Below are positions 25,401 through 41,458 of a DNA stretch of 64,000 nucleotides, in pieces (positions within the stretch are counted from its first letter, which is position 1; each line of letters starts with the position of its first letter). The translations under genes and the position numbers were made by a program. This DNA comes from a virus, in the IMG/VR virus record IMGVR_UViG_3300030102_005560, positions 17,288 to 81,287 of that record. One strand, written 5' to 3'. The notes under the pieces were generated by a model, which had not been told where the DNA came from, made no database searches, and saw only the letters and a list, made by a program, of their open reading frames with translations.

Positions 25401-28400
25401 GTGTCGAGAGGGACTGGTGGGGAGACAGCGAGGGGAAGGGCGAAACGAGCCTCTCTGTGGCCTCCCAGTACTATCTGGTGGACTGGTGGGGCAACGAGCG
25501 CGGAGAGGACGTGAGACGCGCTCCAGTGCGTGGATTCGGCATCCGCCCAGCATGGGACTGCGGCAATGCCTACGAGGAGGACAGGACCAACACCGCTGGT
25601 GCTGACAACCCGTCCAACACAGTGACGATAACCTCCTTCAACAGCCTCGAGAGAGACACTGCCTCCACTGCGCAAATCACCATCTCGGGTGACATAACCA
25701 ACTATGTCAGTCCTGCCAACGCAACTGCCTCGATTGCTATAGCGAACAGCAATGGACTGAACACGGACGTCTTCCCAGTGGGAGAATCAGCCCAGATAAA
25801 ATTCGGACTTCAACCTGCGGATTCCGATAACACAGACGCGAACAACTTCATTCAGTTAGTGAGCGAAGACGGCGCACAGACCACTAAGTGGTTCGCTAGG
25901 ACCAGTGGTACCAACGGTGCTGCCCTGAGCGGTAACAATGGGCAATTCACTTACCCGTCGGGTGCAAGGCAGTACAACATCGGTGCTTCTGTCGTGCTTA
26001 CTGCGAGGAACTTCAAAGGAGCAGTGGAGACTTACAGTCAGGGCTTTGCTGGTTCATTGTCCCAACCACAGCAAGTTGTAAGTGATGTACTAGGTGCAGA
26101 CGACACACAGAACATCACTCTGACTGCTGCTCCCACGGGCTCTGCTCCCAACAGGGTAGGAGCGACCAGTGCGACCCTAACTCTTGGCAGCAGTTTTGCC
26201 TCCCACAACACCAACAACCCCAATACGATAGCCGTCGTTGACTTTACTGGTGGCATCAACGAACTCATACTGGGTGAGACCACGGGCTCCAATGACAATA
26301 CAATCAACTACTTCACAATAACAGACAGTGCTAGTAACGTGAAGAACTACTTCCCATCACATGATTCAACGAATCAGCCTACTGGCTCTACTGGCACTAG
26401 AACCTTCGATGACGGTAGCACCAAATCCGTTGTGTACTTCAACTTCGCTAGTAATGGAAACAACGGGGCCGCTGGTCTTGCTTTAGTCCAAGCAATCAAT
26501 GGGTCGTCTGGACACCCAAACACAATATCAGCACAGAACAATGGCAGTGGAAGCGTCGGCCTCACGCATGACTTGGCTGGCACTGCTGGCAACGGCGCCG
26601 CACTGGCCAAGAGCAACATAGCAGACAGCGTTGCGACAATCTCAGGCAGCAACTTCTCAGGAGGCGTGACGGAGGAGAACGCAACCAACACACCCTTCAT
26701 ACAAATCATCGACAACGAGTCGAGCCCGACGACGAAGAAGTACGTGCCAGTGAAGAACGGTGACGCTCTAGGCAACGGCAACAATGGCGGGGGCAGCATA
26801 GGCGACGTCACTGGTGGTATAGCCTTCCAAGAGGGAGCATCAGCAGTCGCCACTGCTGACAACCTGAGGATAGCGATAGGTCACAGCAATGGTCACGACG
26901 GCACTGTGCTGACTGATGCGGCTGGCAGCGCCGCTATCACCCTCACGCAGAAGACGATAGGGGCAAACACAGCGGCCATCACCCTGAACAACCTTGCCTC
27001 CAACATCAGCAAGACCAACTTCAGCGGTGGCGGGATTCGAGACAACTTCCTCGGACTGACTGATGCGGCAGGGACGCTGAAGAAGTACAAGGCCTCGAAC
27101 ACCGCAGCGAACGGCAGCACCGATGGTACGTACGTCTTCTACGATGCCGCAGCCCCATCCCAGAACAGCACGGTTGCTGAGAATCTCGAGACTGCCATAA
27201 ACAGCGTCAACGGTCACAACGGCACCCTTACCACGACTAGGACCAACAATGCAATAGAAGTCAGGCTCAATCAAGCGACAGTAGGCAGCGCGGCAGTGAG
27301 TGACAACGTGACAGGGTTGACGACCGATGTCTCCTTCACCTCGGTAGTGCACCAGCCCAGAACCCCCTACAGGAGAATCTGGAACGATGCCAAGCCAATC
27401 TACAACCTCAAGGGGATTGCCGACCTTTCCAGCGGGAACATATCCGTCACTGCCGGGAATACCATACCCAGATTCGGCGGTGTGTTGAATGACACCAACA
27501 ACAATGACACTAGCAACCTAGTGGATGTCTTCGCACCGACGCATTCCCTCAGAGTCGGGGACATGGGCAACGGCAGGGGAGTCAGATACCCCACTGCGTT
27601 CAACGAGGACGTAGTCACCGAACTTTCATCACCTACCCACACCACAGGCATGGTGCTCAGTCACAACACAGCAGAGCCACCATTCGGCAATGGTCTGATG
27701 AGACCTCGAAACGACGTCCTAGAATCCGATGAGGTCCCAAGAGGAATAAGCGCTAGACTAGGGATATCCGAGAACGGTCTGCTCAAGCCGGATGCCGTAG
27801 TGAGCGACAGGGTCGAGGAGGTCGTGGGGAGCAGCGTACACAAGGATGCTGTATCCAGAACGAGCCCTAGGATAGGCATAGACGCTGACACGGTGGAGGG
27901 CATAGAGCAGCATCACGTGGTAATCAACACAGAGGCACATAGCCTACACACGGATAGGGACATAGGCCAGAGGGTCCTGCTCCAAGGAGGGAGCCAAGTC
28001 AAGACTAGCAGTGCAAGCACTCTCACTGATGTGAACTACAACGCTCTCTCCTTCGCTAGACAGTCATCCAGCGGGTCTGTGGTGAGCGCTGCTCACAAGT
28101 TCAGCCACACATCTACATTCAGACCGTATGGTGGTACGTATCTGATTGACAGCAAATCGTACTCGGGTCTCTTCGATGACACTGGCTGGGGAGTCACTAG
28201 CCTGACCGGCTCCACTGACACCTCCAATCCATATCAGGACCCTGACAACTATTCGAGTGACACAGTGAGGAACAACGAGAAGGACAAATCGGTTGAGTTC
28301 CTCCTTCGCCCAATCAGAGTGCTGGACAACAGCCACGTAGAGGTATTCAGGTTCCACAACTCCCTATCCTCAGGCACTCCGCAGTACGATGCCAACTACT

Positions 28401-28834: not shown

Positions 28835-30276
28835 TGGCGAGGATGAGAAACAGCAACGGAGCGTTTGACACCTCTCTGACTGCAATAGCCACGAAGAGCA
28901 GGAGACCAGTTTTCGTCGACAATGCAGTGCACTTCGCCAAGGTCGAGCCACGCAGCAGCGGCAAGAGCAGAGTGACCATAGAGCAGAAGAACGCGGAGAC
29001 CTACTACGTGGCCACTGAGAAGTCATACTCCATAGCGGAGTCCGAGTCAGCGGTGACGCTGTCACACGAGGAGACTGCTGGTCACACCCTCAAGAGCACG
29101 GTCTTCAGCACTCGTGGGAGGAACACATCAACCCCGCTCCTGTACTCAGCGGATGAGCCATCAAAGAGAATCATAGGAAGCACATCCACCATGACCAACA
29201 ACGGTCTCAGAGTGAACCTTCGCAACATGAAAGGCAAGAAACTCTCGGACATAGGCTTCTCTACCGATAGGGTGAGAATGGGCCAGATAGTGGACATCGG
29301 TCTGAGGACCACTGACTTAGCGACTGAGTTGGCTGACTCGCTGTCAGGTACGGTGACAGCCTTCTCTATAGGCAACGCGATGCGAAGCACCAACACCAAT
29401 CGCCAAAGGAGAACCGTCAGCAACGTGTTCCTCGCTGCTGACTTCAAGAACATCAATCTCCTATCAGCACTCCGCTTCGTGTCCAGACACGATAACAGGA
29501 TACCGATGTACGACAGATACGGCGTGTTACAGTACGTTCCTTACAATGCAGCGTCTACCATACGCTCCATAGATGCGAACGTCAGACTGGGAGACAGAGA
29601 CACCAACCCCGTGGAGAACTCGGAGAACAGAATCACAGTCCAAGGTAGGCCGATAGCCCTTAATGACAATCTCCTGCTCACAATGGACGACCGAGAAAAG
29701 CAACAGGGGAGATTCGACAACGACATAGTGGAGGGAGTGTCGCCGGTGTTCGACGCATCCATCACCAATCGTCAACAGGCCAGAAGAGTCGCTAGACAGA
29801 TACTGAAGACAAACTCCCTCTTCACTGGGAGCATCACATCGAATGGCCACCCTGAGTTATGGGACTTGAGACCCGGTGACACTGTGTTCTTCGATGGCAG
29901 CAAATACTCTGTTCTAGAAGTGAGACACAAGATGGCAGACCTCAACAGCGACTTCGTGTTCCTCAATGCTGACATCGGCATAGAGGGAGTGTTCCAAGGC
30001 ATAATAGAAGGTAGTGTCTCGGCGTCCAATGACACTGGTGACGAAAAGGTGAACCAAATCGTCGACGAGAACTTCTCCTTCTTCGAGGGCTTTGAAATCA
30101 ACGTGATGCCCATAATCACCGTCACCCACGTTGGGAGCACTGGGCTTCTCATAGGTGGAAACACCAATAGGGGTAAGATAGGTGGAGCAGTAACGATAGG
30201 ACCGGGCGTGACAGGTGACATCAGGAGCATTGGGCTAAACAAGTCGACCCCATTAGTAGTAAGAGGTGAGATGTGA
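28831..30276 (+). CDS. Tail tip/baseplate hub protein (gp27/Tal-like)
   Basis: NLLSALRFVS..YDRYGVLQY, NRITVQG, DASITNRQQARRVARQIL, LRPGDTVFF..VLEVRH. Confidence 0.6.
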   Translation: MMARMRNSNGAFDTSLTAIATKSRRPVFVDNAVHFAKVEPRSSGKSRVTIEQKNAETYYVATEKSYSIAESESAVTLSHEETAGHTLKSTVFSTRGRNTSTPLLYSADEPSKRIIGSTSTMTNNGLRVNLRNMKGKKLSDIGFSTDRVRMGQIVDIGLRTTDLATELADSLSGTVTAFSIGNAMRSTNTNRQRRTVSNVFLAADFKNINLLSALRFVSRHDNRIPMYDRYGVLQYVPYNAASTIRSIDANVRLGDRDTNPVENSENRITVQGRPIALNDNLLLTMDDREKQQGRFDNDIVEGVSPVFDASITNRQQARRVARQILKTNSLFTGSITSNGHPELWDLRPGDTVFFDGSKYSVLEVRHKMADLNSDFVFLNADIGIEGVFQGIIEGSVSASNDTGDEKVNQIVDENFSFFEGFEINVMPIITVTHVGSTGLLIGGNTNRGKIGGAVTIGPGVTGDIRSIGLNKSTPLVVRGEM

Positions 30277-30620
30277 TGCCAGCAAACGACCATTTGAAGC
30301 GCCTGATGGTGGAAACCATCGCAAATAACATCAACGAGATGGTTATCGGGTTCGATGGCACACCGGCTACTTCGACCGACGGGGCCGCCGGTCGACCCGC
30401 TATCACCATCACTCCCACAGTCAGGATACTGGACAACTCCACTCTCTTGGTCGAGGGAGTCATACCATCGAGCGAGTCCTTCAGCGAGACTCTCAAGGAG
30501 GTCTTTGTGCAACTCAGAGGCACCAACGACTTCACTCCCATCACTAGGCATGTTTTCAGACCGATTCAAAAGACCTCGACCAACGAGGTCAATCTACAGT
30601 TGATAATAGAGGTGAAGTGA
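30273..30620 (+). CDS. Fibre-attachment/tail-collar-like small protein
   Basis: MVIGFDGT..STD, TLKEVFV, RHVFRPIQKT..LQLIIEV resemble tail-collar fibre N-terminal domains. Confidence 0.5.
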   Translation: MMPANDHLKRLMVETIANNINEMVIGFDGTPATSTDGAAGRPAITITPTVRILDNSTLLVEGVIPSSESFSETLKEVFVQLRGTNDFTPITRHVFRPIQKTSTNEVNLQLIIEVK

Positions 30621-30621
30621 A

Positions 30622-33225
30622 GTGCCAAGCGGAAAGAAGAACCACACCACCAGACTCACAGATGGCGACTTCATCATGTCCCCCTCGCTCACTAATCTAC
30701 TAGAGGGAATACATGGCAACGGCGTTCTCCTTCTGGAGGACGGTGCCACTAGCACCAGTGGCAATCGCAACACGCCCGCTTCGCTATCAGGGGCGGTTGC
30801 AGCGAACGGCACCAATGGCCTGACAATCAAAGCAGGTTATGCTGTCATTGATGGCATGGTCGTCGACTTCGGGAACTACACCGTAGGAACCAACGCCAAC
30901 GACTACAACATAACGCTGGAAGCAAGCAGAATAGAGGGCACTAACACTGCTCTCACGACTGCTGGAGACACAGTGCTCTTGGTGGTCTACGTCTCGACTT
31001 ACGGTAACAGCGGCTATCACAACGTACACGTGGAGATGGGAACCAAGGTCACCAGTGGATTCCCAGTGACCCCAGAGGGCTTCCTCTCCGACACCAGTGG
31101 CCTCGAGAGCCTGAACCTCAACTCCAAGCAGAGCACAGTCCTAGCCGTGGTCAAATGCGTTCACAACTCAAGCGGAGGCGACTTGAAACTAGAAGTAGAC
31201 ACCATCTACGACATGAGGACATTCATACGAAACTCCCCGATTTACATGGCTCCCATGACCAAGGACACCGTGGGGACCTACACTAACAGAATCACCTCAG
31301 CCAGCGAACTGGATGGCATGCATGGGGGTGGAGACGAGACTGGTGCACTGACCAAGAGTGACAACCCCCTTGGTGCGCTTTGGATGAGCGGTAACGAAAA
31401 TGGGGAGTCGGTGCTTTACTTCAGCGGTATTCAATCGAGCAGCCGCATCACTTCGAGACTGGGGCCCGATAACGTGGTAGTAGCCGCTGATGGTAACAAT
31501 CAGACCTTCAAGGTGGACACAGGCAACGTATTTCATCTCACTCCAACTGGAAACATAGAAGTCAATCCACAAGGGTCCTTCCCCAGAAGCCACATGATTA
31601 GCATATTCAACTTTAGTAGTAGCAACACAATCAGTTACAACGCCACTAATGATGGTAACTCAGGCAATGCAAGTTTCACCATAGGCGTCTCCACCAGTGC
31701 CATGATTGCTTACGATGGTAACAACTGGAAGCAGGTGTTTGTCTCCACCAACGTATCTGGTGCAGCCGATGGCGTGGTCGGAAGAATGCAGATATCTGAT
31801 GGCTCGGGCAACCACACCTCCGATGCCGACCTCACGTTCAGCAAAGGTGAGGTTACGGGGGTGCTTGTCAACAACGGCAGCGGATACAGCGGCGGTCACA
31901 CTGGGGCCGTAGTCGTCGACACCGTAGATGCCACCACTAAGATATCAGTCGGTGACGTGCTGCGCAGAACCAATAACGCTGGTGCCGTGATAGGCACAGT
32001 CACAGCGGTCACATCAACCTCAGTCACCTTCGCTGCTGGCACGCTCACTGCCCTCAGCAACAACGACCCTCTGTACAGAGAGGGGAAGTTGGCTGTCGAT
32101 GGCGTAGTCGACATCAGCAAGCCCATCTTCGGTCCGACCGGCATTGAGTTCACACCTATCGGCAAGAACCCATACAAGACCACAGCAGCAAACTCGCTCT
32201 GGAGGAACAGCGCTGACAGCAACAGGCTCTACTCAGGCGGGACCAAGATACTGCTCGATGGAGACAGCGTTGGTGCTACCACTATTCTAGGTCTCACCGA
32301 TACACCAGCCAACTTCACTAGCGCGGCGAACAAGTTCCTGCAAGTCAACAGCACGCCTGATGCAATCATATTCGACACGATAGCAAGTGGTGACCTGCCC
32401 TCCAATCTGAATACAATCACAGCCATAGGTCCCGCTGGTACACTCACCGTCAATCAGGACCTGACTGTGACTGGCAATCTGACCGTGAGCGGCACAACCA
32501 CGACTCTGGACGTGGCCACTGTGAACGTCGAGGACATCAACATGGTCCTCGGCAATGGTGTGGGCAATGACGCAGCAGTCGATGGTGGGGGAATCACGCT
32601 GGACAGCAGTGATGGTGACAAGACCATTCTATTCACTGACTCCACTGATTCTTGGACATTCAATCAGCATCTCTTCCCGAGTGCTGACAGCAGTAAGAAT
32701 CTCGGTAGCAGCAGCATCAGATGGGCGACCAGTTTCTCCGATGCTGTCAACACCGGCACGATTACAGGAAGCGGAGACGTAACCATAGACACCAGCGTGC
32801 TGAAGGTAGATACGGCCAACAACAGGGTCGGTGTCAACCAAGCGACCCCACTAGCGTCCTTCCAGTACGAGAGCGTTGGGCACGGCTACGTGACTGGTAC
32901 GAGCGGTACAGGTAGCGACGCGGCAGTCCCCCTCACTCTCTTCGGCAAAGCCGAATTCAGGGGTGCAAAGTTGCTGGTGTCAATAGAGAACTCAACAGAC
33001 AGCGCGTATGAGACCCATGAGGCTGTGATAACGCATGATGGCTCCACTGGTGCCTCCGCTGCCATGATTACCATCTACGGAACAGTCAAATCAGCGTCCC
33101 AGACAGTATGCACGCTGACGGCACAAGAGGCAAGTGGCAACATACAATTAGTCATCACCCCCGGTGTGGGAAGCAAGGCGTACACGTTCGGAGTGGCTTG
33201 GAAGGGGATTGCTAAACTGACTTGA
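30622..33225 (+). CDS. Tail fibre/baseplate protein 1
   Basis: N-terminal anchor-like motifs (LTIKAGYAVIDG..IYDMRTF), LTV.G.TTT shaft motif, C-terminal domain shared with next gene. Confidence 0.7.
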   Translation: MPSGKKNHTTRLTDGDFIMSPSLTNLLEGIHGNGVLLLEDGATSTSGNRNTPASLSGAVAANGTNGLTIKAGYAVIDGMVVDFGNYTVGTNANDYNITLEASRIEGTNTALTTAGDTVLLVVYVSTYGNSGYHNVHVEMGTKVTSGFPVTPEGFLSDTSGLESLNLNSKQSTVLAVVKCVHNSSGGDLKLEVDTIYDMRTFIRNSPIYMAPMTKDTVGTYTNRITSASELDGMHGGGDETGALTKSDNPLGALWMSGNENGESVLYFSGIQSSSRITSRLGPDNVVVAADGNNQTFKVDTGNVFHLTPTGNIEVNPQGSFPRSHMISIFNFSSSNTISYNATNDGNSGNASFTIGVSTSAMIAYDGNNWKQVFVSTNVSGAADGVVGRMQISDGSGNHTSDADLTFSKGEVTGVLVNNGSGYSGGHTGAVVVDTVDATTKISVGDVLRRTNNAGAVIGTVTAVTSTSVTFAAGTLTALSNNDPLYREGKLAVDGVVDISKPIFGPTGIEFTPIGKNPYKTTAANSLWRNSADSNRLYSGGTKILLDGDSVGATTILGLTDTPANFTSAANKFLQVNSTPDAIIFDTIASGDLPSNLNTITAIGPAGTLTVNQDLTVTGNLTVSGTTTTLDVATVNVEDINMVLGNGVGNDAAVDGGGITLDSSDGDKTILFTDSTDSWTFNQHLFPSADSSKNLGSSSIRWATSFSDAVNTGTITGSGDVTIDTSVLKVDTANNRVGVNQATPLASFQYESVGHGYVTGTSGTGSDAAVPLTLFGKAEFRGAKLLVSIENSTDSAYETHEAVITHDGSTGASAAMITIYGTVKSASQTVCTLTAQEASGNIQLVITPGVGSKAYTFGVAWKGIAKLT

Positions 33226-33235
33226 GGTGAGATGA

Positions 33236-35716
33236 ATGACTGAAACAGACTTCCGTGTGCAGAAGGGAATAGTGGTGGGTGACGGTGACGTCACCGTGCC
33301 ATCCGCACACAGCGTATTCGCAGGCACATTCGACACCAACGTCACTGCTGCTGGTGTCACTCTATCAGGCATCACGTTAGCGGCTGACGGCACTGATACC
33401 AACATCGACATCAACATCACGCCAAAGGGAACGGGCGAGGTGAACATCACCAAGGTGGACATAAACGGCGGGACGATAGATGGGATTTCGTCATTGACGT
33501 CCTCTGGTGACTTGGATATAGGCGCCCATGACCTCAGAGCAGCCACCCTGACGGCTGATGGCCTGACTGCTGGGCGTGTTGTGTTCGCTGGCACTAACGG
33601 AGTCCTGAGTGATGACAGCGATTTGAGTTTCTCCGGTGACACTCTGACTGCGACTAAGATTGGAGCATTCACCGCCGCTGGTGCAATCGACTTCAACAAC
33701 GAGGACATGACCAACGTCGACATCGACAGTGGTGCCATCGACGGTACAACCATCGGTGGGGCCAGCGCAGCAGCAGGTACCTTCACCGACATGACGGCAA
33801 CTAATGCATTGGCAGGCACCTTCGACACGAACGTGGCTGCTGCTGGCGTTACCCTATCAGGCACCACGCTGGCTGCTGACGGCACTGATACCAACATCGA
33901 CATTAATGTCAATGCCAAGGGCACCGGCTCGTTAGTAGTTGGTAAGGTCTCTATCGGAGGTGGTGCCATTGACAGCACCATCATCGGCGGAAGCACCCCA
34001 GCAGCAGGTACATTCACTGGCCTGACAGCGACCAGTCTCAACCTATCGGAGGGCAACCTCACCAATGCCGGTGAAATCAGCGCTGACAAAATAAAACCAG
34101 ACGGTGCAACCCTCGGTCTTGAGATAGACTTCTCCACTGCTAACAGTGCTAGGTCCAAGATAATAATGCCAGACAATGTAGCCAACGGGCTCGAGATAAG
34201 AGAGGGGTTCACTCCCTACCTCAGGTTCAAGACCACGGATAGCGAGGAGGAGATAGCAGCCATGCGAAATTTCGTGATTGGTCTGAATGGCAATGGTAGC
34301 AGCGGCCACACCCTCGCTTTCAGAGGCAAGACGAGCGGTGGAGATGTGAGGGACATAGCATTCCAAGCATCGATAAACGCCATCTCCAGCAACAACACCG
34401 GCACACAGACGTACACCCTACCCACTGACTTTCCCGCTGCCTCAGGCTATGTTCTCTCGAGCACCGATGCTGGTGTCATGTCATGGGCTGCACAATCCAG
34501 TGGGACAATCACTGCACTGAACAACCAAGGTGCAAACAGGTTGGTCACGATAGGCAGCACGACCACCGAGTTGGATGGGGAGGCTACCGCTACGTACGAT
34601 GGGCAGACGCTTCACATCAACACCACTACTGACAACGCGCCTGCTCAGTTGCTGCTAGAACATAGTTTCAATGACACTAGCGGGCCTAATATCTCATTAA
34701 GGCTTGACAAGGGCGCTGCGGGAGCGGCAAGTGACATAGTAGGTACAATAAAATTTCAGGGTGACGACGCTGGCCAAAACACCACTACTTACGCTGGTTT
34801 GAAAGCAGACGTAGTTGCTGCTACTTCTGGCTCTGAAGAGGGTAGACTCTCATTGCAAGTAGCACAAACAAGCAACGGTGATGTCGCGGACGTGTTGGTG
34901 CTGACTGGTGGTGACAACGCCGACGGCTCCACGTCTAAGGTGGTCGTCAAAGGCGACTTACAGGTGGATGGTAGCACCACCACGATAAACAGCACGACGC
35001 TGGACGTAGATGACCTCAACATCACCGTAGCGAAAGGCGCGGCTGACTCCGCTGCGGCTGATGGTGCTGGTCTCACCGTCGATGGCGCCGGTGCCACATT
35101 CACCTATACCGATTTAGGCACGAGGTGGAACATGAACAAATCATTGAGTGTGACAGGAAGAGTCGCTGCTACCACATCATTCGTCATCGGTAGCGCCGAC
35201 CTCAATGAGACTGACCTAGAGAAACTCGATGGAATCACCGATGGTACTATTGCTGCAAACAAAGCAGTCGTAGTTGATGCTAACAAAGATGCATCTGCCT
35301 TCAGAAATCTCTCTGCTGCGTCGATGTCAACAGGCGAGTTAAGAATTGATTCAGGGGCAGTACTCCTCGATAGTTCTTCAGCAGCCAGCCAGTCTTGGAC
35401 AGGGGGCTCGGCGTATGTCATTGCTGACTTCGATTATAGCAATTTCAGAACAGTCAAGTTCGTGGGTCAAGTCAGCGATGGTACAGATATAGATGCCTTC
35501 GAGGTGCTAGTGACGTGGAAGGGTGCCAGCGCACCAGCAGACGATGCTGCGATATTCATGACCACATACGCCTACATGGCGTCCAGCGGCACACCACTGG
35601 GCTCAGTGACCGCTGTCAAGGATGGCACTGGTGGGACGGTGGACGTGAAGTTCACACCCGGTAGCAACGGCACGTATAAGTACGCAGTGTCGGCAACGCA
35701 AATTACAGCACAATGA
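33236..35716 (+). CDS. Tail fibre protein 2
   Basis: IDGTTIGG..AAGTFT and INITPKGTG fibre repeats; GAGGTGA SD. Confidence 0.75.
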   Translation: MTETDFRVQKGIVVGDGDVTVPSAHSVFAGTFDTNVTAAGVTLSGITLAADGTDTNIDINITPKGTGEVNITKVDINGGTIDGISSLTSSGDLDIGAHDLRAATLTADGLTAGRVVFAGTNGVLSDDSDLSFSGDTLTATKIGAFTAAGAIDFNNEDMTNVDIDSGAIDGTTIGGASAAAGTFTDMTATNALAGTFDTNVAAAGVTLSGTTLAADGTDTNIDINVNAKGTGSLVVGKVSIGGGAIDSTIIGGSTPAAGTFTGLTATSLNLSEGNLTNAGEISADKIKPDGATLGLEIDFSTANSARSKIIMPDNVANGLEIREGFTPYLRFKTTDSEEEIAAMRNFVIGLNGNGSSGHTLAFRGKTSGGDVRDIAFQASINAISSNNTGTQTYTLPTDFPAASGYVLSSTDAGVMSWAAQSSGTITALNNQGANRLVTIGSTTTELDGEATATYDGQTLHINTTTDNAPAQLLLEHSFNDTSGPNISLRLDKGAAGAASDIVGTIKFQGDDAGQNTTTYAGLKADVVAATSGSEEGRLSLQVAQTSNGDVADVLVLTGGDNADGSTSKVVVKGDLQVDGSTTTINSTTLDVDDLNITVAKGAADSAAADGAGLTVDGAGATFTYTDLGTRWNMNKSLSVTGRVAATTSFVIGSADLNETDLEKLDGITDGTIAANKAVVVDANKDASAFRNLSAASMSTGELRIDSGAVLLDSSSAASQSWTGGSAYVIADFDYSNFRTVKFVGQVSDGTDIDAFEVLVTWKGASAPADDAAIFMTTYAYMASSGTPLGSVTAVKDGTGGTVDVKFTPGSNGTYKYAVSATQITAQ
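33320..33928 (+). repeat. Intragenic duplication (~117 bp at 33320 and 33812)
   Basis: AGTFDTNV.AAGVTLSG.TLAADGTDTNIDIN occurs twice, 492 bp apart; 29-bp exact match at 33383 and 33875. Confidence 0.85.
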
Positions 35717-35741
35717 TGGACAGTGAAATCATGGTGAAACA

Positions 35742-38700
35742 ATGGCAGAGGAGAATTTCAGAGTAAGAAAGGGGATAACCGTAGATGGCTCTGGCTACTC
35801 GGCCATCAGGGACTCCTTGAAGATAGGATACATCTCCACGCTGACCAGCAACAACACGAATGTGGGTGGCCAAGATGCCCAACTGAGGGTCTCAGGTAGG
35901 AACGATGACGAGCCCGGCATAATACAACTCTCACACTTCGACAATAACAACTTCTACGGTGGCACTGGTGTCTTCACACTGGGGCAGATACAATTCGCCA
36001 TGAACGAGAATAGCAACGATGTCACCACTGTCGCTGAGATTCGTGGTATCACCAGCGACCCGAATACCCCCGGAGACTTCGATGGTGCGCTCAAGTTCTT
36101 CACTTCGCAAGGAGATGGTTCCGGGGCTAACCTCACTGAGAAGATGATACTTACTGCTGATGGTAGGGTCGGAATAGGCACTACGGGTCCCGGTATTTCG
36201 CTCGATGTGCGAACTGGCTCGCAATACACCAACACCTACAAAGCGCACCTGAGCCTCATTGACACTCAAACTGCATACGATGGCTCAAACCCCGGCGGGG
36301 CAGTTATCTTCGGTGGCATTGATGATTCCAGTGGTGGTACTTCTTGGTGGGCGAAGATAGCCGGAGAGAAGGCTAATGCGACAGATGACAATAGAAGCGG
36401 TATTCTAAATTTCTACACCCGTGAAGAGGGAGGGAACCCAACTCAAAGAATGAGGATAAAAGAGGATGGGCAAGTTCTAATCGGGAAGACAGCATCAGTA
36501 GCAAGCATCGACAGAAAACTAGAGGTGGAGGGAACCATTGCCGCCGCAAGTGGTAGTTCGGGTGGAGTAGGATTCCACATGCAGAACTCCGAAGGGGAGT
36601 TTCTCGTTTACACTGATGGTGGTGCGCTGATTGTCAAGGACTACGCAGGTTCAGACACATACCCATTCAAGATAGAAGGTACGGCACAGAACGACACTCT
36701 CGTTGTAAATACTGGCGGGGATGTCACCATCAAAGACCAACTTATATTGGGTTCTGAGATTATTCATTCTGGTGATACCAACAACAAGATTGCATTCGGT
36801 ACTGATACTCAGACTTTCACTACTGCTGGTTCTGCTAGGATGACCATTGAAGCAGATGGTGACATTGCTATGACGGAAGACCTTGATGTAGCAAAGCACT
36901 TCTCCTTCAACACACAGCATGTTGGTGGCTCTGCGGGCGGAAGCACAGGAACGGAGAATGGTGCTAATACATGGTGCAAGATTCTGGAATGGGACCCCGG
37001 TACAAATCAATACAGGGACTTGAGCCTGACTCTAGGTATTACTGCGGTGGATGTAGGGAGTCAGAACCAAGCGATAATCAACGTCTATGGTAGGTCCAAT
37101 GGAACTAACAGCGCACATACTATGGGTGTCAAAGTCATATCCCTGATAAGCACGGTTCATCTACAAGACGACTCCTTCAAGATGATTACCGAGGGATGGG
37201 GGCAACCGATAGAACTCTGGATGAAGAAGTACGGTAATTATGGTACTTACAATTGGAACGAGATAGCGAAGAAATTGGGCGGTAGCACCACTCTGACTTA
37301 TTCCTCCAACTCGGCATGGCAATCAACAGAGCCGGTGAAGACCAACGGGTCGCCACAAGCAACTCGCTCTTACGGCACGGTGATTGAGGGTAGGAATCCT
37401 GTATTGAATCTGTATCACAACCAGAACGTAAGTCAGTTGAGCGCAGGTGATGTCCTCTCCACGATTAGTTTCAGGAAGCATACGACTACGAGTGGTAATG
37501 AGACAATCAGAATCTACAACGTGCAGGGCGACTCCGGTTCTAGCGGTGCATCTGATGACTACCACACTAGCGACCTGAGAATATCAACTAGGAAGATAGG
37601 AACGAATTCCTACTTCGACCGATTCACCATTCTAGGTCAGGAGGGCTATGTAGGAATAGGGACTATGAGTCCCGCAGTTCCCCTTCATGTTGCAGGTGCA
37701 AACAACGAAGCGGCGAGATTTGAGGGTAGTGGTAATGATGCCTTCATCAAAATCCTAGAGCCAACGGGTAGTGAGAACGTAGTCCTCGGCTCAACGGGTG
37801 GAACGGGATTCGTTGGTTCTGCAAGCAATAACAACTTCGCCATCAGAGCGAACAACTCCAACAAGATGACCATAACTCCGGCGGGTTTGGTCGGAATAGG
37901 CACTACATCCCCAACCGATACATTACACGTTGAAGGAAACACAAGAACTGATGGAACATTCCTAGTGGAAGACCAAAACACGGACTTCCACATGATTAAA
38001 TTGACAAGTGCTGATGGTAGCACTGACTACGATGTAGGTCTTCATTTCCAAGGCTCGCCAAACATACTGGATGTGACTAACGCACACGGCGATGTGAACT
38101 TAAGACCCGGTTCAGCAGGAACTCTATCCACATCGTATCTCACTGTCAAGGGTGATGGTGATGTCGGAATAGGCACTACGAGTCCACAGTCCAAACTGCA
38201 CATCTCAAGCGGAACATCGGGTGATGCTGTCCTCATCCTTGAGGCAGACACGGACAACAACGATGAGACAGACCAACCATTCATCGTCTTTGAGCAAGAT
38301 GGTGGGACACAACACTCAGCGATTGGCAGTCATTCGGGGAGCAGTACCGACAACAACGCTTTGATTCTCTCTAACTCAGTTGGTTCAAGCGGCATTGAAG
38401 CCGGAATGATATTCAAGACAGGCACAACAAGTGGTTATGCCAATGCCGTTGAAAGAATGAGAATCACACCTGCTGGTAATGTCGGAATAGGCACTACGAG
38501 TCCCAGCACTTCACTTCATGTTTCAGATGCCGCAGAAGTGTCATTGAGCGTTGATTCATCCCATGCGACAGGCTCGCAGATTAGCCTCGATGCGACAGGA
38601 ACAGGCGGAGATGAGTGGAGAATAGTATCCGGTGCTGACAATGCAGGTATCGGCGGTGGCGCATTCGGGTTATACAATGTGGATACAACTTCATACAGAT

Positions 38701-40547
38701 GGATGGTCACATCTGCTGGCAATGTCGGCATAGGCACTACGAGTCCTGATGCCAAACTCCATGTCGAGGGTAGTGTGTTGATTGACGCATATGAGCAAGG
38801 AGCAGGTGCAGGTTTATTCTTCCGCGAGGGATTCCTCAATACCAACCAACCCTCAATCACAGTAATAGACCATAGCGGTGCTAACCCTGACGGGCTTTGC
38901 ATAGCCGCTCATGATGGCATATCATTCAAAGTGAATGGTGGCACTGAGAGAGTAAGATTCGCCTCTGATGGTAATGTCGGGATAGGCACAACGAGTCCTT
39001 CTTCAAAGTTAGATGTGGCAGGAACGATAGAATGCACCGGACTGAACCTACAAAACGGCAGTTTGGACTATGGTAATGGTAAGCAGCAAACAGTCGATTT
39101 GGCTGTTGGTTGGTACACGTTTGCGGTCTGCAAGGGCCGAGATGCAACCACATCGGCGCAAAGGGCGTTCGGTGAGTTCCTAATCAACGATGTAGATAGC
39201 GGTAGGCACGGCTCTTGTAGGTTGAATGCCACGCACTTCTTCGGTGCTGGAAACAGCATACAGGTCTTCGCATACAACTTCTACTCTACTGTTGTATTCA
39301 CTGAATTAAGAATAAAAGAAAGTGGCACATATGCTGGTGCGGCTTTGCAGGTCTATGTGTCGAATGCGAATAACAACCTAGAGTCTTACATGACCATGAG
39401 TGAGCAGAATCGGTCTTGGGATTTGTTAGATACGTGGCTCCCTGACAGCGATATAGTGGGCCACGATGCCATACTAGGTTATGCATCCCATAGCCAAGAT
39501 TGGTCAGGATTTTCCGTAGCAGAAACGGTAGACTTGAGCGTATTTAGCGCCACCAACCAAGGTGGTATCTACACAAGTGGTGGCGTAAAGGCAGAAACTC
39601 TATTTCTCGGTAAGACTGGAACTTCAAGTGAATACAGACTTCACCCTGATTCTGCTAATTCAGTTCTTTCTACCAACTCTGACGGGTCTGATGTCACGCT
39701 TCGTGCTGACGATGACTTGGTTCTCATTGCCGATGATGATATGATTTTCAAGAATGGAAGCGCAACCAATATGGTTCTTACTTCTGACGTTCGTTTAGGA
39801 GTAGGCACTAATGTTCCTGACCGATTGCTCGAGATAAAGGAAAGCGGAACTGGTGCCGCTATCATGCGTTTCAGAAACAGCAACACATCATACCCAGATG
39901 ACACCGCCTTCGGTACCATAGAGTTCTACAACGCAGATGCTTCTGGTGAGGGCATAACTGCGAAGATAAACGCAATCTCAGATGCCTCTGGTCGAGGCGG
40001 GCAACTGCAATTCCAAACTGACGATACCGGAACAAGCCCACAGACGGCTCTCTTATTGCAAGGTGATTTGAACGCGGTGTTCGCAGGAAACGTCGCTTCT
40101 ACAAGCGCCAACAATTACAATCTCTACTGGCCTTTGTATTTCCAAAGAGACAATATGGGAACAAGCAATATAGACATGAGAATGCCTGTCGGTGGTGCTG
40201 GAACTAGCAGTCCAAACGCTATGGCTATGCCAAGAGCAGGTAAGATAATGGCTTTGACTTTACATTACTACGGAGGCACATTAAGCACTAGCAGTTCTAA
40301 GAGCGATACATGGAGAATCAGACATCACAGCGGTGGAACTGCTGATGTGACTACTGAGGATATTGTGGTAACTATGGACACTCTAGTAGCAACTTCCAAT
40401 GCTAATCAGAGAGTAAAAACCATTGAGTTATCTACTCCTTTGGTGTTTGCTGCGGATGACTCAATAGGATTTAGGAGAAATGCCAATGCCGGGTCAAATT
40501 CAATACATGAAGTGGCTGCCGTAATATGGTGTCACTTTGACGTATAG
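35742..40547 (+). CDS. Long tail fibre / receptor-binding protein
   Basis: At least 7 (R/K)M.I...G.VGIGTT.P repeats; mosaic, more AT-rich codon usage; followed by a fibre chaperone. Confidence 0.8.
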   Translation: MAEENFRVRKGITVDGSGYSAIRDSLKIGYISTLTSNNTNVGGQDAQLRVSGRNDDEPGIIQLSHFDNNNFYGGTGVFTLGQIQFAMNENSNDVTTVAEIRGITSDPNTPGDFDGALKFFTSQGDGSGANLTEKMILTADGRVGIGTTGPGISLDVRTGSQYTNTYKAHLSLIDTQTAYDGSNPGGAVIFGGIDDSSGGTSWWAKIAGEKANATDDNRSGILNFYTREEGGNPTQRMRIKEDGQVLIGKTASVASIDRKLEVEGTIAAASGSSGGVGFHMQNSEGEFLVYTDGGALIVKDYAGSDTYPFKIEGTAQNDTLVVNTGGDVTIKDQLILGSEIIHSGDTNNKIAFGTDTQTFTTAGSARMTIEADGDIAMTEDLDVAKHFSFNTQHVGGSAGGSTGTENGANTWCKILEWDPGTNQYRDLSLTLGITAVDVGSQNQAIINVYGRSNGTNSAHTMGVKVISLISTVHLQDDSFKMITEGWGQPIELWMKKYGNYGTYNWNEIAKKLGGSTTLTYSSNSAWQSTEPVKTNGSPQATRSYGTVIEGRNPVLNLYHNQNVSQLSAGDVLSTISFRKHTTTSGNETIRIYNVQGDSGSSGASDDYHTSDLRISTRKIGTNSYFDRFTILGQEGYVGIGTMSPAVPLHVAGANNEAARFEGSGNDAFIKILEPTGSENVVLGSTGGTGFVGSASNNNFAIRANNSNKMTITPAGLVGIGTTSPTDTLHVEGNTRTDGTFLVEDQNTDFHMIKLTSADGSTDYDVGLHFQGSPNILDVTNAHGDVNLRPGSAGTLSTSYLTVKGDGDVGIGTTSPQSKLHISSGTSGDAVLILEADTDNNDETDQPFIVFEQDGGTQHSAIGSHSGSSTDNNALILSNSVGSSGIEAGMIFKTGTTSGYANAVERMRITPAGNVGIGTTSPSTSLHVSDAAEVSLSVDSSHATGSQISLDATGTGGDEWRIVSGADNAGIGGGAFGLYNVDTTSYRWMVTSAGNVGIGTTSPDAKLHVEGSVLIDAYEQGAGAGLFFREGFLNTNQPSITVIDHSGANPDGLCIAAHDGISFKVNGGTERVRFASDGNVGIGTTSPSSKLDVAGTIECTGLNLQNGSLDYGNGKQQTVDLAVGWYTFAVCKGRDATTSAQRAFGEFLINDVDSGRHGSCRLNATHFFGAGNSIQVFAYNFYSTVVFTELRIKESGTYAGAALQVYVSNANNNLESYMTMSEQNRSWDLLDTWLPDSDIVGHDAILGYASHSQDWSGFSVAETVDLSVFSATNQGGIYTSGGVKAETLFLGKTGTSSEYRLHPDSANSVLSTNSDGSDVTLRADDDLVLIADDDMIFKNGSATNMVLTSDVRLGVGTNVPDRLLEIKESGTGAAIMRFRNSNTSYPDDTAFGTIEFYNADASGEGITAKINAISDASGRGGQLQFQTDDTGTSPQTALLLQGDLNAVFAGNVASTSANNYNLYWPLYFQRDNMGTSNIDMRMPVGGAGTSSPNAMAMPRAGKIMALTLHYYGGTLSTSSSKSDTWRIRHHSGGTADVTTEDIVVTMDTLVATSNANQRVKTIELSTPLVFAADDSIGFRRNANAGSNSIHEVAAVIWCHFDV
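36168..38998 (+). repeat. Seven dispersed ~23-bp repeats, consensus GTCGGAATAGGCACTACGAGTCC
   Basis: Copies at 36168, 37650, 37890, 38163, 38481, 38724, 38976; all in frame as VGIGTTSP-type motifs. Confidence 0.85.
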
Positions 40548-40555
40548 GTGATGTT

Positions 40556-40765
40556 ATGGATTGGGAAGAAGTAAGAGGAAAGAGAGACAGTGAACTATTG
40601 AACATGGATAAGTATCAACTAGCGATACCATATTCACTATTGACAGATGCACAGAAGGAAGAGTTGGCTACATACAGACAGGCGCTTCTCGACCTGCCCA
40701 ATGATTACGATACTCCCGAAGAGGCAGAGGAGAACTTCCCGGAGCAACCAGACTGGATGGCTTAG
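40556..40765 (+). CDS. Tail fibre assembly chaperone
   Basis: WEEVRGKRD.LL..D...YRQALLDLP....FPEQP matches the small phage fibre chaperone family. Confidence 0.8.
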   Translation: MDWEEVRGKRDSELLNMDKYQLAIPYSLLTDAQKEELATYRQALLDLPNDYDTPEEAEENFPEQPDWMA

Positions 40766-41233: not shown

Positions 41234-41458
41234 TCAACTTTCTCCGCCGCTGGTCATTCTAGGCAACAAGTTTCTCTTCTTTTTGAATACGGAGTCCTGC
41301 CAGAAGTGCCCGCATTTCTTGCACTGCCACAGTTGTATTCTCTTCTTTATCGCAGTGGTATCCCCGTTGTGGTATCTAGCAGTGAGACGATGTGGGACGT
41401 GAGTGTGATTGCAGTTTCTACACTTCACTTCCAACCGCTTCATCAGTCGTCCCATCAC
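41234..41458 (-). CDS. Zinc-ribbon protein (TFS/TFIIS C-terminal-like)
   Basis: VKCRNC...WQCKKCGHFWQD; start overlaps thermosome stop. Confidence 0.6.
   Translation of the reverse strand: MMGRLMKRLEVKCRNCNHTHVPHRLTARYHNGDTTAIKKRIQLWQCKKCGHFWQDSVFKKKRNLLPRMTSGGES

What the first reader, a model, noticed from the sequence alone, without database searches (positions are those of the whole stretch)
30273..40765. Candidate plug-and-socket daisy-chain system for building a segmented tail fibre
Seen: fibre 1 (867 aa) and fibre 2 (826 aa) end in the same ~100-aa domain (F...FR..K....TD...E..(I/V)T..G...AA..T.Y....TA....G....TPG...Y...V; ~32926-33222 and ~35411-35713). The gene after each begins with the same peptide (MTETDFRVQKGIVV; MAEENFRVRKGITV). 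Fibre 1 has the domain but not the peptide, fibre 2 has both, and fibre 3 has the peptide but ends in a different tip followed by a chaperone gene. Inference: the C-terminal domain is a socket that captures the N-terminal FRVxKG plug of the next protein. This would give an extensible anchor-extender-adhesin chain, collinear with gene order, in which whole genes can be added or swapped. I am not aware of this pair being described as a docking system.
Basis: partly seen in the sequence, partly recalled or inferred. Interest (0 to 1): 0.8.

Follow-up and report, generated by a model that had tools for sequence, protein, structure and literature searches.

The report
Head-to-tail docking of tail-fibre proteins
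Three neighbouring tail-fibre genes of an uncultured marine virus seem to join end to end: an end domain related to phage T4's fibre "socket" (gp9) precedes a short start peptide on the next protein, and this pairing recurs in hundreds of uncultured viruses.

Summary
Fibre 1 (30622-33225) and fibre 2 (33236-35716) end in the same ~100-aa beta-sandwich. Fibre 2 and fibre 3 (35742-40547) start with the same peptide. A Pfam tail-fibre chaperone gene follows.

- **Socket:** it is a distant homologue of the C-terminal domain of T4 gp9. The literature describes that domain as the site where the long tail fibre attaches, via the gp34 N-terminus. T4 gp9 is the only PDB-wide profile hit (E 0.016). The fold match is Z 11.6, and phrog_967 is hit weakly.
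- **Fibre 1:** it also carries a gp9-middle-like domain and a shoulder-type baseplate anchor, so it looks like a stretched gp9.
- **Adjacency:** in about 330 IMG/VR loci, 312 of 395 genes ending in the socket are followed by a gene starting with the peptide. For other genes the figure is 21 of 2012.
- **Chain ends:** peptide-bearing genes with a socket are followed by another peptide gene in 104 of 108 cases. Those without a socket are followed by one in 0 of 157.
- **Commonest chain type:** socket / peptide+socket / peptide, as in this window.

Binding itself is inferred, not shown. Similarity of the peptide to the gp34 N-terminus is not significant. Some lineages carry the domain with no partner gene. 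First readers noted the same pattern in two other genomes. Verdict: a new variant of a known kind.

The parts
30622..33225 (+). Fibre 1 (867 aa), the proposed anchor. It has no N-terminal peptide and ends in the socket domain.
   Evidence: ORF, translation. It is colinear with orthologues at 48-50% identity. The N-terminus (SGHT..LTDGD.I.SPS.TNL.E..HGNG) is conserved in 12 relatives.
30709..31227 (+). Fibre 1 residues ~30-202: a shoulder-type baseplate-attachment fold.
   Evidence: AF2 model mce909e06a0b2. VIA matches: lactococcal phage 1358 RBP N-terminus Z 7.0, A-1(L) tail fibre Z 6.1, Mtd Z 6.0, Haloferax tailed virus 1 fibre Z 5.8, TssK Z 5.5. These are middling Z values, so this is a lead and not proof.
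31465..31758 (+). Fibre 1 residues ~282-379: a fold like the gp9 middle domain (XD1).
   Evidence: VIA matches: 9f4a_LA residues 62-174 Z 8.7, CBA120 TSP4-N Z 8.9, CpaA Z 9.0, StcE Z 6.8. PMC8825819 groups T4 gp9, TSP4 XD1, CpaA and StcE in one fold.
32449..32690 (+). Conserved pre-socket block in fibre 1 (V.G.L.V.G.TTT...N..LG.G.G.DAA.DGGGITL). The same block lies in fibre 2 at about 34928-35130.
   Evidence: Alignment A1 has many invariant columns. The AF2 model is of low confidence here, so its function is not known.
32926..33222 (+). Socket 1: the C-terminal beta-sandwich of fibre 1, like the gp9 C-terminal domain.
   Evidence: AF2 pLDDT 80-90 with eight strands. Foldseek top hit is T4 gp9 1qex, E 3e-6. 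VIA 9f4a_LA residues 175-300: Z 11.6, rmsd 2.4 over 113 residues. phrog_967 E 1.2e-4. Profile A2 hits T4 gp9 residues 188-280.
33236..35716 (+). Fibre 2 (826 aa), the proposed extender, with both the peptide and the socket.
   Evidence: Against the L003 orthologue the N- and C-terminal parts are conserved, and L003 has an insert of about 450 aa in the middle.
33236..33301 (+). Plug 2: the N-terminal peptide MTETDFRVQKGIVVGDGDVTV.
   Evidence: Peptide profile E 1.4e-7 in the six-frame record. It starts 10 nt after the stop of fibre 1.
35414..35713 (+). Socket 2: the C-terminal beta-sandwich of fibre 2.
   Evidence: Socket profile 85.6 bits, E 1.8e-25. It is 22% identical to socket 1 in alignment A2.
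35742..40547 (+). Fibre 3 (1601 aa), the proposed distal adhesin, with the peptide and no socket.
   Evidence: phrog_18345 tail fibre E 1e-53. No socket is found even with filters off. The body is unrelated to fibre 3 of L003.
35742..35807 (+). Plug 3: the N-terminal peptide MAEENFRVRKGITVDGSGYSAI.
   Evidence: Peptide profile E 6e-5 in the six-frame record, with no close relative in that profile. It starts 25 nt after the stop of fibre 2.
40556..40765 (+). Tail-fibre assembly chaperone (69 aa).
   Evidence: Pfam PF16778 E 8e-11, 42 bits against a cut-off of 26.6. PHROG tail fibre assembly families also match.
28831..30620 (+). Context: 481-aa and 115-aa ORFs between the giant ORF and fibre 1, probably tail-tip or hub proteins.
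   Evidence: There is only a weak Pfam Phage-tail_3 hit, E 7.6e-4 and below the cut-off. The same two ORFs precede fibre 1 in L001, L003 and L183.

Best explanation
The three genes encode one segmented fibre that assembles head to tail in gene order. Fibre 1 is a stretched relative of the T4 baseplate-fibre connector gp9. It has a shoulder-type domain that fixes it to the tail tip, a gp9-middle-like domain, a shaft, and at its far end a gp9-C-terminal-type beta-sandwich. By analogy with gp9 this domain would form a trimeric socket. The N-terminal peptide of fibre 2 (consensus x3-6-[DN]-F-[RK]-V-K-x-G-L-x-V) has the alternating pattern of a short beta-hairpin. It would dock coaxially on that socket, as the gp34 N-terminus does on gp9 in T4. 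Fibre 2 carries the same socket at its own end and takes up fibre 3 in the same way. Fibre 3 has no socket, needs the chaperone encoded downstream, and is the receptor-binding end. What is shown: the two elements, their homology and fold, their strict gene-order coupling across many viruses, and the rule that chains end at a protein without a socket. What is inferred: the physical contact, the trimeric state, the hairpin shape of the peptide, and that pair-specific residues set the order.
For: Socket and gp9: the A2 profile's only hit among 177,635 PDB sequences is T4 gp9 residues 188-280, E 0.016. The 175-sequence socket profile scores 19.0 bits on gp9, against 2.3 bits or less on gp10, gp35, gp36 and gp37. 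phrog_967 is the family that T4 gp9 itself hits at 3e-149. Socket 1 hits it at 1.2e-4, and a 148-aa socket-only protein from another lineage hits it at 8.5e-5. Fold matches are Z 11.6 and Foldseek E 3e-6. Literature: gp9 trimers are called the socket proteins, long tail fibres attach coaxially to the gp9 C-terminal domain (PMC3004832), and they do so via the gp34 N-terminus (PMC10253068). Fibre 1 also has a gp9-middle-like domain and an anchor fold. Coupling: 209 of 212 DNA-pattern hits for the peptide lie 5-7 codons after a start codon, and 170 of 195 are preceded by a socket gene. In loci chosen through plug-less socket proteins, 58 of 126 genes after a socket carry the peptide, against 12 of 609 others (odds ratio 42). 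With filters off the figures are 312 of 395 against 21 of 2012. There are 283 junctions with a median gap of 18 nt, and only 2 lie between two genes that carry both elements. Chains end where the socket ends: 104 of 108 against 0 of 157. By clusters at 50% identity the counts are 21, 3, 31 and 0. The own record holds two sockets and two peptides. Fibre 3 was exchanged downstream of the peptide.
Against: No binding was measured or modelled. The peptide's likeness to the T4 gp34 N-terminus (REFRAEDGLDAGG) is not significant. A narrow profile ranks it 80th of 3237 T4 six-frame segments. A broader profile makes it the best single site in the T4 genome, but at E about 1. Pfam's gp9 C-terminal model PF23618 does not hit the sockets. 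The domain also occurs with no peptide gene after it. Examples are pelagiphage-like fibres, 122-aa proteins, and cyanophage S-SM2 gene SSM2_107. It also occurs as 3-8 tandem copies inside single proteins. A similar fold caps tailspikes of Acinetobacter and Klebsiella phages, where it is read as a trimerisation domain (PMC10253068). The loci are related to one another and partly chosen through the peptide, so the P values overstate independence. At loose clustering the extenders fall into only 2-3 groups. No natural fusion of socket and peptide was seen among the 150 best socket-profile hits.
Confidence: 0.65

Rival explanations
1. A branched or alternative arrangement. Only the socket of fibre 1 is used, and fibres 2 and 3 both dock on it, either on different fibre 1 trimers or in competition. 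This gives two kinds of fibre. The domain at the end of fibre 2 would then be a free tip or a folding knob.
For: The two peptides are alike at 9 of 14 positions, so one socket might take both. The same fold is a terminal domain of tailspikes elsewhere. Branched receptor-binding complexes that use a conserved N-terminal peptide are known in Klebsiella phages (PMC6872550, PMC13352976).
Against: Gene order would then be free. Yet a peptide gene without a socket is never followed by another peptide gene (0 of 157), and one with a socket almost always is (104 of 108). The socket-less member is last in every multi-gene chain type seen.
Confidence: 0.15
2. There is no contact between the two elements. 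The C-terminal domain serves only for folding and trimerisation, or for binding the host. The peptide fixes each fibre to some other tail protein. The adjacency reflects shared regulation and the inheritance of a gene cassette.
For: The gp9 C-terminal domain is also said to be needed for folding and trimerisation (PMC10253068). About half of the socket lineages sampled have no peptide gene after them. No other gp9-like socket is needed if the peptide binds a different fold.
Against: The own record has no further socket-like domain for the peptides to bind. The junction, rather than the gene, is the conserved unit across unrelated N-termini, bodies and tips. The socket is homologous to a domain whose documented role is to hold a fibre N-terminus.
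Confidence: 0.15
3. Chance resemblance, or recent tandem duplication of one fibre gene.
For: Fibres are repetitive and low in complexity. The fibre 1 / fibre 2 BLASTP E-value is only 5e-5.
Against: Profile E-values are about 1e-25 for both sockets. The library search gave 2037 proteins at E up to 0.001, and in about 140 of the 150 best hits the domain is at the extreme C-terminus. Only 2 of 283 junctions lie between genes carrying both elements.
Confidence: 0.02

Closest known systems
T4 gp9 (baseplate-fibre connector, 'socket protein') with the N-terminus of the proximal long-tail-fibre protein gp34
   Same: The socket here is homologous in sequence profile and in fold to the gp9 C-terminal domain (residues ~170-288), the site where the fibre attaches coaxially (PMC3004832; PMC10253068). 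Fibre 1 also has a gp9-middle-like domain. Like gp34, the partner is held by its extreme N-terminus. The gp34 start (FRAEDGL) looks like the peptide.
   Different: In T4 the socket sits on a 288-aa baseplate protein, is used once, and its gene lies far from gene 34. Here it sits at the far end of long fibres, is used repeatedly, and is always followed directly by the partner gene. The likeness of the peptide to gp34 is not statistically supported. Pfam's gp9 C-terminal model does not reach these domains.
T4 long tail fibre joints (gp34-gp35-gp36-gp37)
   Same: Both are segmented fibres made of several proteins encoded in assembly order, with a chaperone gene after the distal subunit.
   Different: The T4 joints use a monomeric hinge protein (gp35) and unrelated interfaces. 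The socket profile does not match gp35, gp36 or gp37. The gp36 N-terminus is not plug-like on the narrow peptide profile, and gp37 gave no reported match.
Branched receptor-binding proteins of Klebsiella phages (KP32, K11, KP34) and CBA120 TSP4: T4gp10-like branching domains plus a conserved docking peptide on the second protein
   Same: A trimeric beta-sandwich module on one receptor-binding protein takes up the conserved N-terminal part of the next one, and the genes are adjacent and exchangeable (PMC6872550, PMC13352976, PMC8825819).
   Different: There the docking modules (XD2/XD3) lie near the N-terminus of the first protein and give side branches. Here the module is the gp9 C-terminal type at the extreme C-terminus and gives a linear chain. 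The peptide motif also differs.
Neck fibre of cyanophage A-1(L): gp82-(gp81)14-gp80 bead chain
   Same: It is an experimentally shown anchor-extender-terminator chain of trimers. N-terminal beta-hairpins of one trimer bind the preceding trimer, and the three genes lie in one operon (PMC10966104).
   Different: There is no sequence similarity to the socket or the peptide. The extender polymerises with itself about 14 times. It is a neck fibre, not a tail fibre.
gp9-like C-terminal domain of tailspikes (RaK2 gp529; Acinetobacter phage tailspikes; Kp9 gp42)
   Same: The same fold sits at the extreme C-terminus of a trimeric receptor-binding protein (PMC10253068).
   Different: It is interpreted there as a trimerisation domain, and no partner peptide is described. 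I did not examine their downstream genes.

Membership tests
T4 gp9 C-terminal domain (Pfam PF23618 T4_gp9_10_C; phrog_967) | Match to the curated Pfam model | tested here: not met
   Fibres 1 and 2 have no Pfam family at E up to 0.1. T4 gp9 itself hits PF23618 at 1e-42.
T4 gp9 C-terminal domain (Pfam PF23618 T4_gp9_10_C; phrog_967) | Profile-level sequence homology to the gp9 C-terminal domain | tested here: met
   The A2 profile's only PDB-wide hit is T4 gp9 residues 188-280, E 0.016. The 175-sequence profile scores 19.0 bits on gp9 (best domain 17.3 bits), aligned nearly end to end. phrog_967 is hit at E 1.2e-4 and 8.5e-5.
T4 gp9 C-terminal domain (Pfam PF23618 T4_gp9_10_C; phrog_967) | Eight-stranded antiparallel beta-sandwich fold | tested here: met
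   The AF2 model has eight strands at pLDDT 80-90. Foldseek's top hit is 1qex, E 3e-6. VIA gives Z 11.6, rmsd 2.4 over 113 residues, to residues 175-300 of 9f4a_LA, a 303-aa baseplate chain.
T4 gp9 C-terminal domain (Pfam PF23618 T4_gp9_10_C; phrog_967) | Forms a trimer that holds a fibre N-terminus coaxially | not testable with these tools
   Only monomer prediction was on hand. Support is indirect, from gene-order statistics.
T4 gp34-type N-terminal attachment peptide | Sequence similarity to the gp34 N-terminus | tested here: inconclusive
   The narrow profile ranks gp34 80th of 3237 segments. The broad profile's best single site in the whole T4 six-frame translation is gp34 residues 9-26, but at 7.3 bits and E 0.99. 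A bridging form, SAFRVEDGL, follows a 138-aa socket protein in L365.
T4 gp34-type N-terminal attachment peptide | Located at the extreme N-terminus of a fibre protein | tested here: met
   209 of 212 pattern hits lie 5-7 codons after a start codon. Internal occurrences are rare and scattered among the 150 socket-profile hits.
Branched RBP systems (T4gp10-like XD2/XD3 branching domain plus conserved peptide) | Docking domain of XD2/XD3 type in the N-terminal part of the first RBP | tested here: inconclusive
   The fibre 1 N-terminal model shows an XD1-like domain (TSP4-N Z 8.9). No separate XD2/XD3 match was resolved. The conserved partner-adjacent domain is C-terminal and of gp9-C type.
A-1(L) neck-fibre bead chain (gp82/gp81/gp80) | Sequence relationship to gp80-gp82 | tested here: not met
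   The socket and peptide profiles score below 1 bit on gp80 and gp81, and gp82 gave no reported match.
Phage tail fibre assembly chaperone (Pfam PF16778) | Match above the curated cut-off, with the gene directly after the distal fibre gene | tested here: met
   42.1 bits against a cut-off of 26.6, E 8e-11. The gene starts 9 nt after the stop of fibre 3.

The most novel reading that the evidence does not exclude
The gp9-C-type socket and the DF[RK]VKxGL-type N-terminal peptide form a general, portable docking code. Many uncultured tailed viruses would use it to string two, three or more separately encoded trimers into one fibre. These viruses include this magrovirus-like one, which may infect archaea. 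Pair-specific residues would fix the order, and a socket-less protein would end the chain. T4's gp9-gp34 joint would then be one specialised, baseplate-bound instance of a much wider system. A second peptide type (MATKIQAFNLH...) would serve another socket subfamily.
Probability: 0.5. Interest if true: 0.75.

Novelty: new variant of a known kind. Interest (0 to 1): 0.68.

Why it matters
If the contact is real, fibre architecture could be read straight from sequence in uncultured viruses. One could tell which protein is the anchor, which extends the fibre, and which touches the host. It would explain how host-range modules are exchanged as whole genes behind a constant joint. It would place T4's long-known gp9 socket in a large family of fibre-to-fibre joints. 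It would also offer a small, defined peptide-domain pair for testing modular fibre assembly in laboratory phages.

Tried and rejected
Gene contexts for the library hits had to be obtained by the search for related loci with subfamily alignments instead.
- **The search for related loci with alignment A2** failed for lack of a conserved stretch.
- **Cultured phages:** tblastn of fibre 2, the 14-kb region and the 148-aa socket protein against cultured phages gave nothing. Cultured examples are therefore lacking, apart from S-SM2 SSM2_107, which has the domain but no peptide gene after it.
- **The genome search on the T4 record** with the peptide alignment found no candidates. I scanned T4 locally instead.
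- **Natural fusion:** I looked for a socket followed by the peptide in one chain. There was none among the 150 best hits.
- **PDB search with the peptide profile** gave only chance-level hits.
- **A-1(L) neck-fibre proteins** are analogous, not homologous.
- **Read-through fusions:** I considered folding a read-through of a socket gene into the next gene as a stand-in for a complex, and rejected it. A monomeric artificial fusion would not model a trimeric coaxial joint.
- **Method note:** hmmsearch with default filters missed 10 sockets on long fibres, so the final counts use filters off on the last 160 residues.
- **Covariation** between socket and peptide was not attempted, because shared descent would confound it without a proper tree-aware method.
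Full report
**Where the window lies.** The window is part of an 81-kb IMG/VR virus record, estimated 81% complete. It carries a structural module on the + strand. A replication module on the - strand includes a GroEL-type chaperonin and a family-B DNA polymerase. Cultured phages show no similarity. Three IMG/VR contigs (L001-L003) are syntenic relatives with about 47% protein identity.

**The observation.** Fibre 1 has 867 aa, fibre 2 has 826 aa, fibre 3 has 1601 aa, and a 69-aa ORF follows. The shared C-terminal domain lies exactly at the coordinates given.
- BLASTP of fibre 1 against fibre 2 gives E 5e-5 over about 250 residues. The likeness therefore begins earlier than the last 100 aa and includes a strongly conserved block of unknown role.
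- The first 14 residues of fibres 2 and 3 agree at 9 positions.
- The 69-aa ORF is a tail-fibre assembly chaperone by Pfam's own threshold.
- In the complete record a socket profile finds only the two C-termini, and a peptide profile finds only the two N-termini.
- The relatives L001 and L003 repeat the pattern. Fibre 1 ends in the domain. Fibre 2 starts with MGTIKDFRVKQGL and ends in the domain. Fibre 3 starts with MGTKKDF[KV]VK.GL.
- Between this window and L003, fibre 3 shares nothing but the peptide and one weak segment, while fibres 1 and 2 are colinear.

**What the C-terminal domain is.** An AlphaFold2 model built from five sequences is confident only for the last ~115 residues, which form an eight-stranded beta-sandwich.
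- Foldseek's best PDB match is T4 gp9, E 3e-6.
- An independent all-against-all aligner gives Z 11.6 (rmsd 2.4 Å over 113 residues) to residues 175-300 of a 303-aa baseplate chain of Klebsiella phage KP1. Next come the C-terminal domains of several tailspikes, at Z 8-10.
- Sequence profiles agree. The five-sequence profile has one hit in the entire PDB, T4 gp9 residues 188-280, E 0.016.
- A 175-sequence profile aligns nearly end to end with the same residues at 17-19 bits, and gives nothing on gp10, gp35, gp36 or gp37.
- phrog_967, the gp9 family, is hit by socket 1 and by a 148-aa socket-only protein of an unrelated virus group.
- Pfam's gp9 C-terminal model does not reach these domains, so the relationship is distant.

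The literature is explicit about what this domain does in T4. [quoted passage not shown] They do so via the N-terminus of gp34 (PMC10253068).

**What fibre 1 is.** A second model, of the first 420 residues of fibre 1 (13 sequences, mean pLDDT 61), shows two folded parts.
- Residues ~30-202 resemble the shoulder or TssK-type domain by which receptor-binding proteins sit on baseplates (Z 5.5-7).
- Residues ~282-379 resemble the middle (XD1) domain of gp9-like proteins. The matches include residues 62-174 of the same KP1 chain whose residues 175-300 matched the socket (Z 8.7), and CBA120 TSP4-N (Z 8.9).

Fibre 1 thus looks like a gp9 with a shaft of about 390 aa inserted between its middle and C-terminal domains. 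That suits the role of anchor. These Z values are middling, so this part is a lead.

**How widespread the domain is.** A profile search of 1.84 billion representative proteins found 2037 proteins at E up to 0.001 and 154 at up to 1e-10.
- In about 140 of the 150 best hits the domain is at the extreme C-terminus.
- About 37 of those proteins also begin with the peptide at residue 6-8, and the motif is almost never internal.
- Other N-termini occur: fibre 1-like, gp37-like (KLKRSS...), LQFRRGT-type, and gp9-N-like (VIDVG...GDSLY..G.KIN.NF).
- Some proteins with a gp9-N-like start carry three to six detected tandem copies of the domain; the library search counted up to eight matched stretches.

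- Of 212 in-frame matches, 209 lie five to seven codons after a start codon.
- Of 195 with enough upstream sequence, 170 have an immediately upstream same-strand gene that ends in the socket.
- By protein cluster the count is 12 of 19.
- The commonest layout is a 148-aa socket-only protein, then a 470-940-aa fibre with peptide and socket, then a ~150-aa protein with the peptide only. This is the same three-part logic as in the window, in a quite different virus group.

**Test from the socket side.** I fetched 145 loci through four subfamilies of socket proteins that themselves lack the peptide.
- Genes that follow a socket carry the peptide in 58 of 126 cases. Other genes carry it in 12 of 609 (odds ratio 42).
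- By socket cluster at 70% identity: 16 clusters are followed by the peptide, 3 by a different conserved start (MATK[IVL][KQR]..N[FIL]), and 12 by neither.
- The group followed by neither is mainly pelagiphage-like fibres and 122-aa proteins. Cyanophage S-SM2 gives a cultured example.

So the domain family is wider than the pairing, and about half of the sampled socket lineages take part in it.

**Is it just duplicated genes?** No. Among 283 socket/peptide junctions only 2 lie between two genes that both carry peptide and socket. In 199 the upstream gene has no peptide. In 140 of the 225 junctions whose downstream gene is complete, that gene has no socket. The median gap is 18 nt; the gaps in the window are 10 and 25 nt. 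What is conserved is the junction, not the gene.

**Serial or branched?** The data favour a serial chain.
- With filters off on the last 160 residues, a peptide-bearing gene that has a socket is followed by another peptide gene in 104 of 108 cases. One without a socket is followed by one in 0 of 157 cases.
- Ten apparent exceptions turned out to be sockets that default filters had missed.
- By clusters at 50% identity, with the peptide itself left out of the comparison, the four cells are 21, 3, 31 and 0. At looser clustering the extenders fall into few groups, so the number of independent lineages is uncertain.
- Complete chains are of the types -S>PS>P- (63, the window's type), -S>P- (42), PS>P- (11) and -S>PS (10).

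A chain that always ends at the first socket-less member is what head-to-tail assembly predicts. A model in which all fibres bind one socket does not predict it.

**The peptide and gp34.** T4 gp34 begins MAEIKREFRAEDGLDAGGDKIINV, which looks like the peptide.
- A profile built from 17 peptides on socket-bearing library hits does not pick it out. It ranks 80th of 3237 six-frame segments.
- A broader profile of 34 peptides, including forms such as SAFRVEDGL that follow sockets, makes gp34 residues 9-26 the best single site in the T4 genome. The score is only 7.3 bits, E about 1.

I therefore treat homology of the peptide to gp34 as open. The functional analogy rests on the socket.

**Comparison with what is known.** The principle that one trimeric fibre protein holds the N-terminus of the next is established in several systems:
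- T4 gp9-gp34;
- T4 gp10 and CBA120 TSP4 (PMC8825819);
- the branching domain and docking peptide of Klebsiella podophages (PMC6872550, PMC13352976);
- the A-1(L) neck-fibre bead chain (PMC10966104).

A gp9-like C-terminus on a tailspike has been noted, and was read as a trimerisation domain (PMC10253068). In the papers I could search, I did not find this particular pair described as a serial docking system: a gp9-C-type domain at the far end of fibres, with a DF[RK]VKxGL-type start on the next gene. I also found no description of the gene-order rule shown here.

**Earlier notes of this scan.** First readers recorded the same pattern in two other genomes (e1-6070379, e1-6052183) and in an overlapping reading of this stretch (e1-6053726). 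The peptides quoted in the first are those of L003, which I examined.

**Verdict.** The feature is real and widespread, and its most likely meaning is head-to-tail docking. The socket is a relative of a known one, so the kind is known. The serial use on fibre ends, the conserved peptide and the chain-ending rule make it a new variant. Binding remains to be shown.

Noticed in passing
window 10403-28834 (+): A single 6143-aa ORF lies between the tail-tip genes and the 481-aa ORF. The relatives L001-L003 and L183 have the same giant ORF, cut by contig ends. Another first-reader note covers it (e1-6053730).
   Followed up: no
window 41455-42951 (-) and 48668-51031 (-): A GroEL/Cpn60-type chaperonin (Pfam PF00118, E 1e-125) and a family-B DNA polymerase (PF00136, E 1e-26). 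A chaperonin-sized gene on the - strand follows the fibre genes in L001 and L003 as well.
   Followed up: partly
L348, L349, L351, L360, L361, L381 (gene directly after the socket gene): A second conserved N-terminal motif, MATK[IVL][KQR]..N[FIL] (for example MATKIQAFNLH), abuts sockets of the '...VKLRAIRT..' subfamily with zero gap or overlapping stop and start. It may be a second plug type matched to another socket subfamily.
   Followed up: partly
P0009, P0012, P0019, P0031, P0064 (library hits): Single proteins carry several tandem copies of the socket-like domain (five or six detected locally, up to eight matched stretches in the library search). Several (P0009, P0012, P0031) have a gp9-N-like start (VIDVG...GDSLY..G.KIN.NF). 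No plug motifs lie between the copies. Their role is unknown; they could be beads, branching sites or lectins.
   Followed up: partly
L339, L340, L411, L412: A variant chain: a socket gene, then a small 117-135-aa protein with no recognisable plug but its own socket, then a plug gene.
   Followed up: no
window 32449-32690 and 34928-35130: A strongly conserved block (V.G.L.V.G.TTT......V.D.N..LG.G.G.DAA.DGGGITL) precedes both sockets and recurs in the relatives. AlphaFold gave it low confidence as a monomer. It may be a trimeric beta-helix segment.
   Followed up: no
window 33300-34040 (fibre 2 residues ~25-267); L004-L080: A repeated shaft module (..AADGTDTNIDINI.PKG.G.V....V.I.GG.IDG..) is shared at up to 80% identity with short fibres of many podovirus-like contigs that start MPTNLTG..., which shows exchange of shaft modules across virus groups.
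   Followed up: partly
L094, L098, L117 and many others (gene after the ~150-aa plug-only protein): In the 148/600/150-aa chain family the next gene is a further fibre that starts MATRMQQRRGTAAQW (Mtd-N/hyaluronidase-type start). These viruses therefore carry a second, differently attached fibre beside the chain.
   Followed up: no
method: hmmsearch with default filters missed the socket on 10 long, compositionally biased fibres. Searching only the last 160 residues with filters off recovered them at 32-74 bits.
   Followed up: yes
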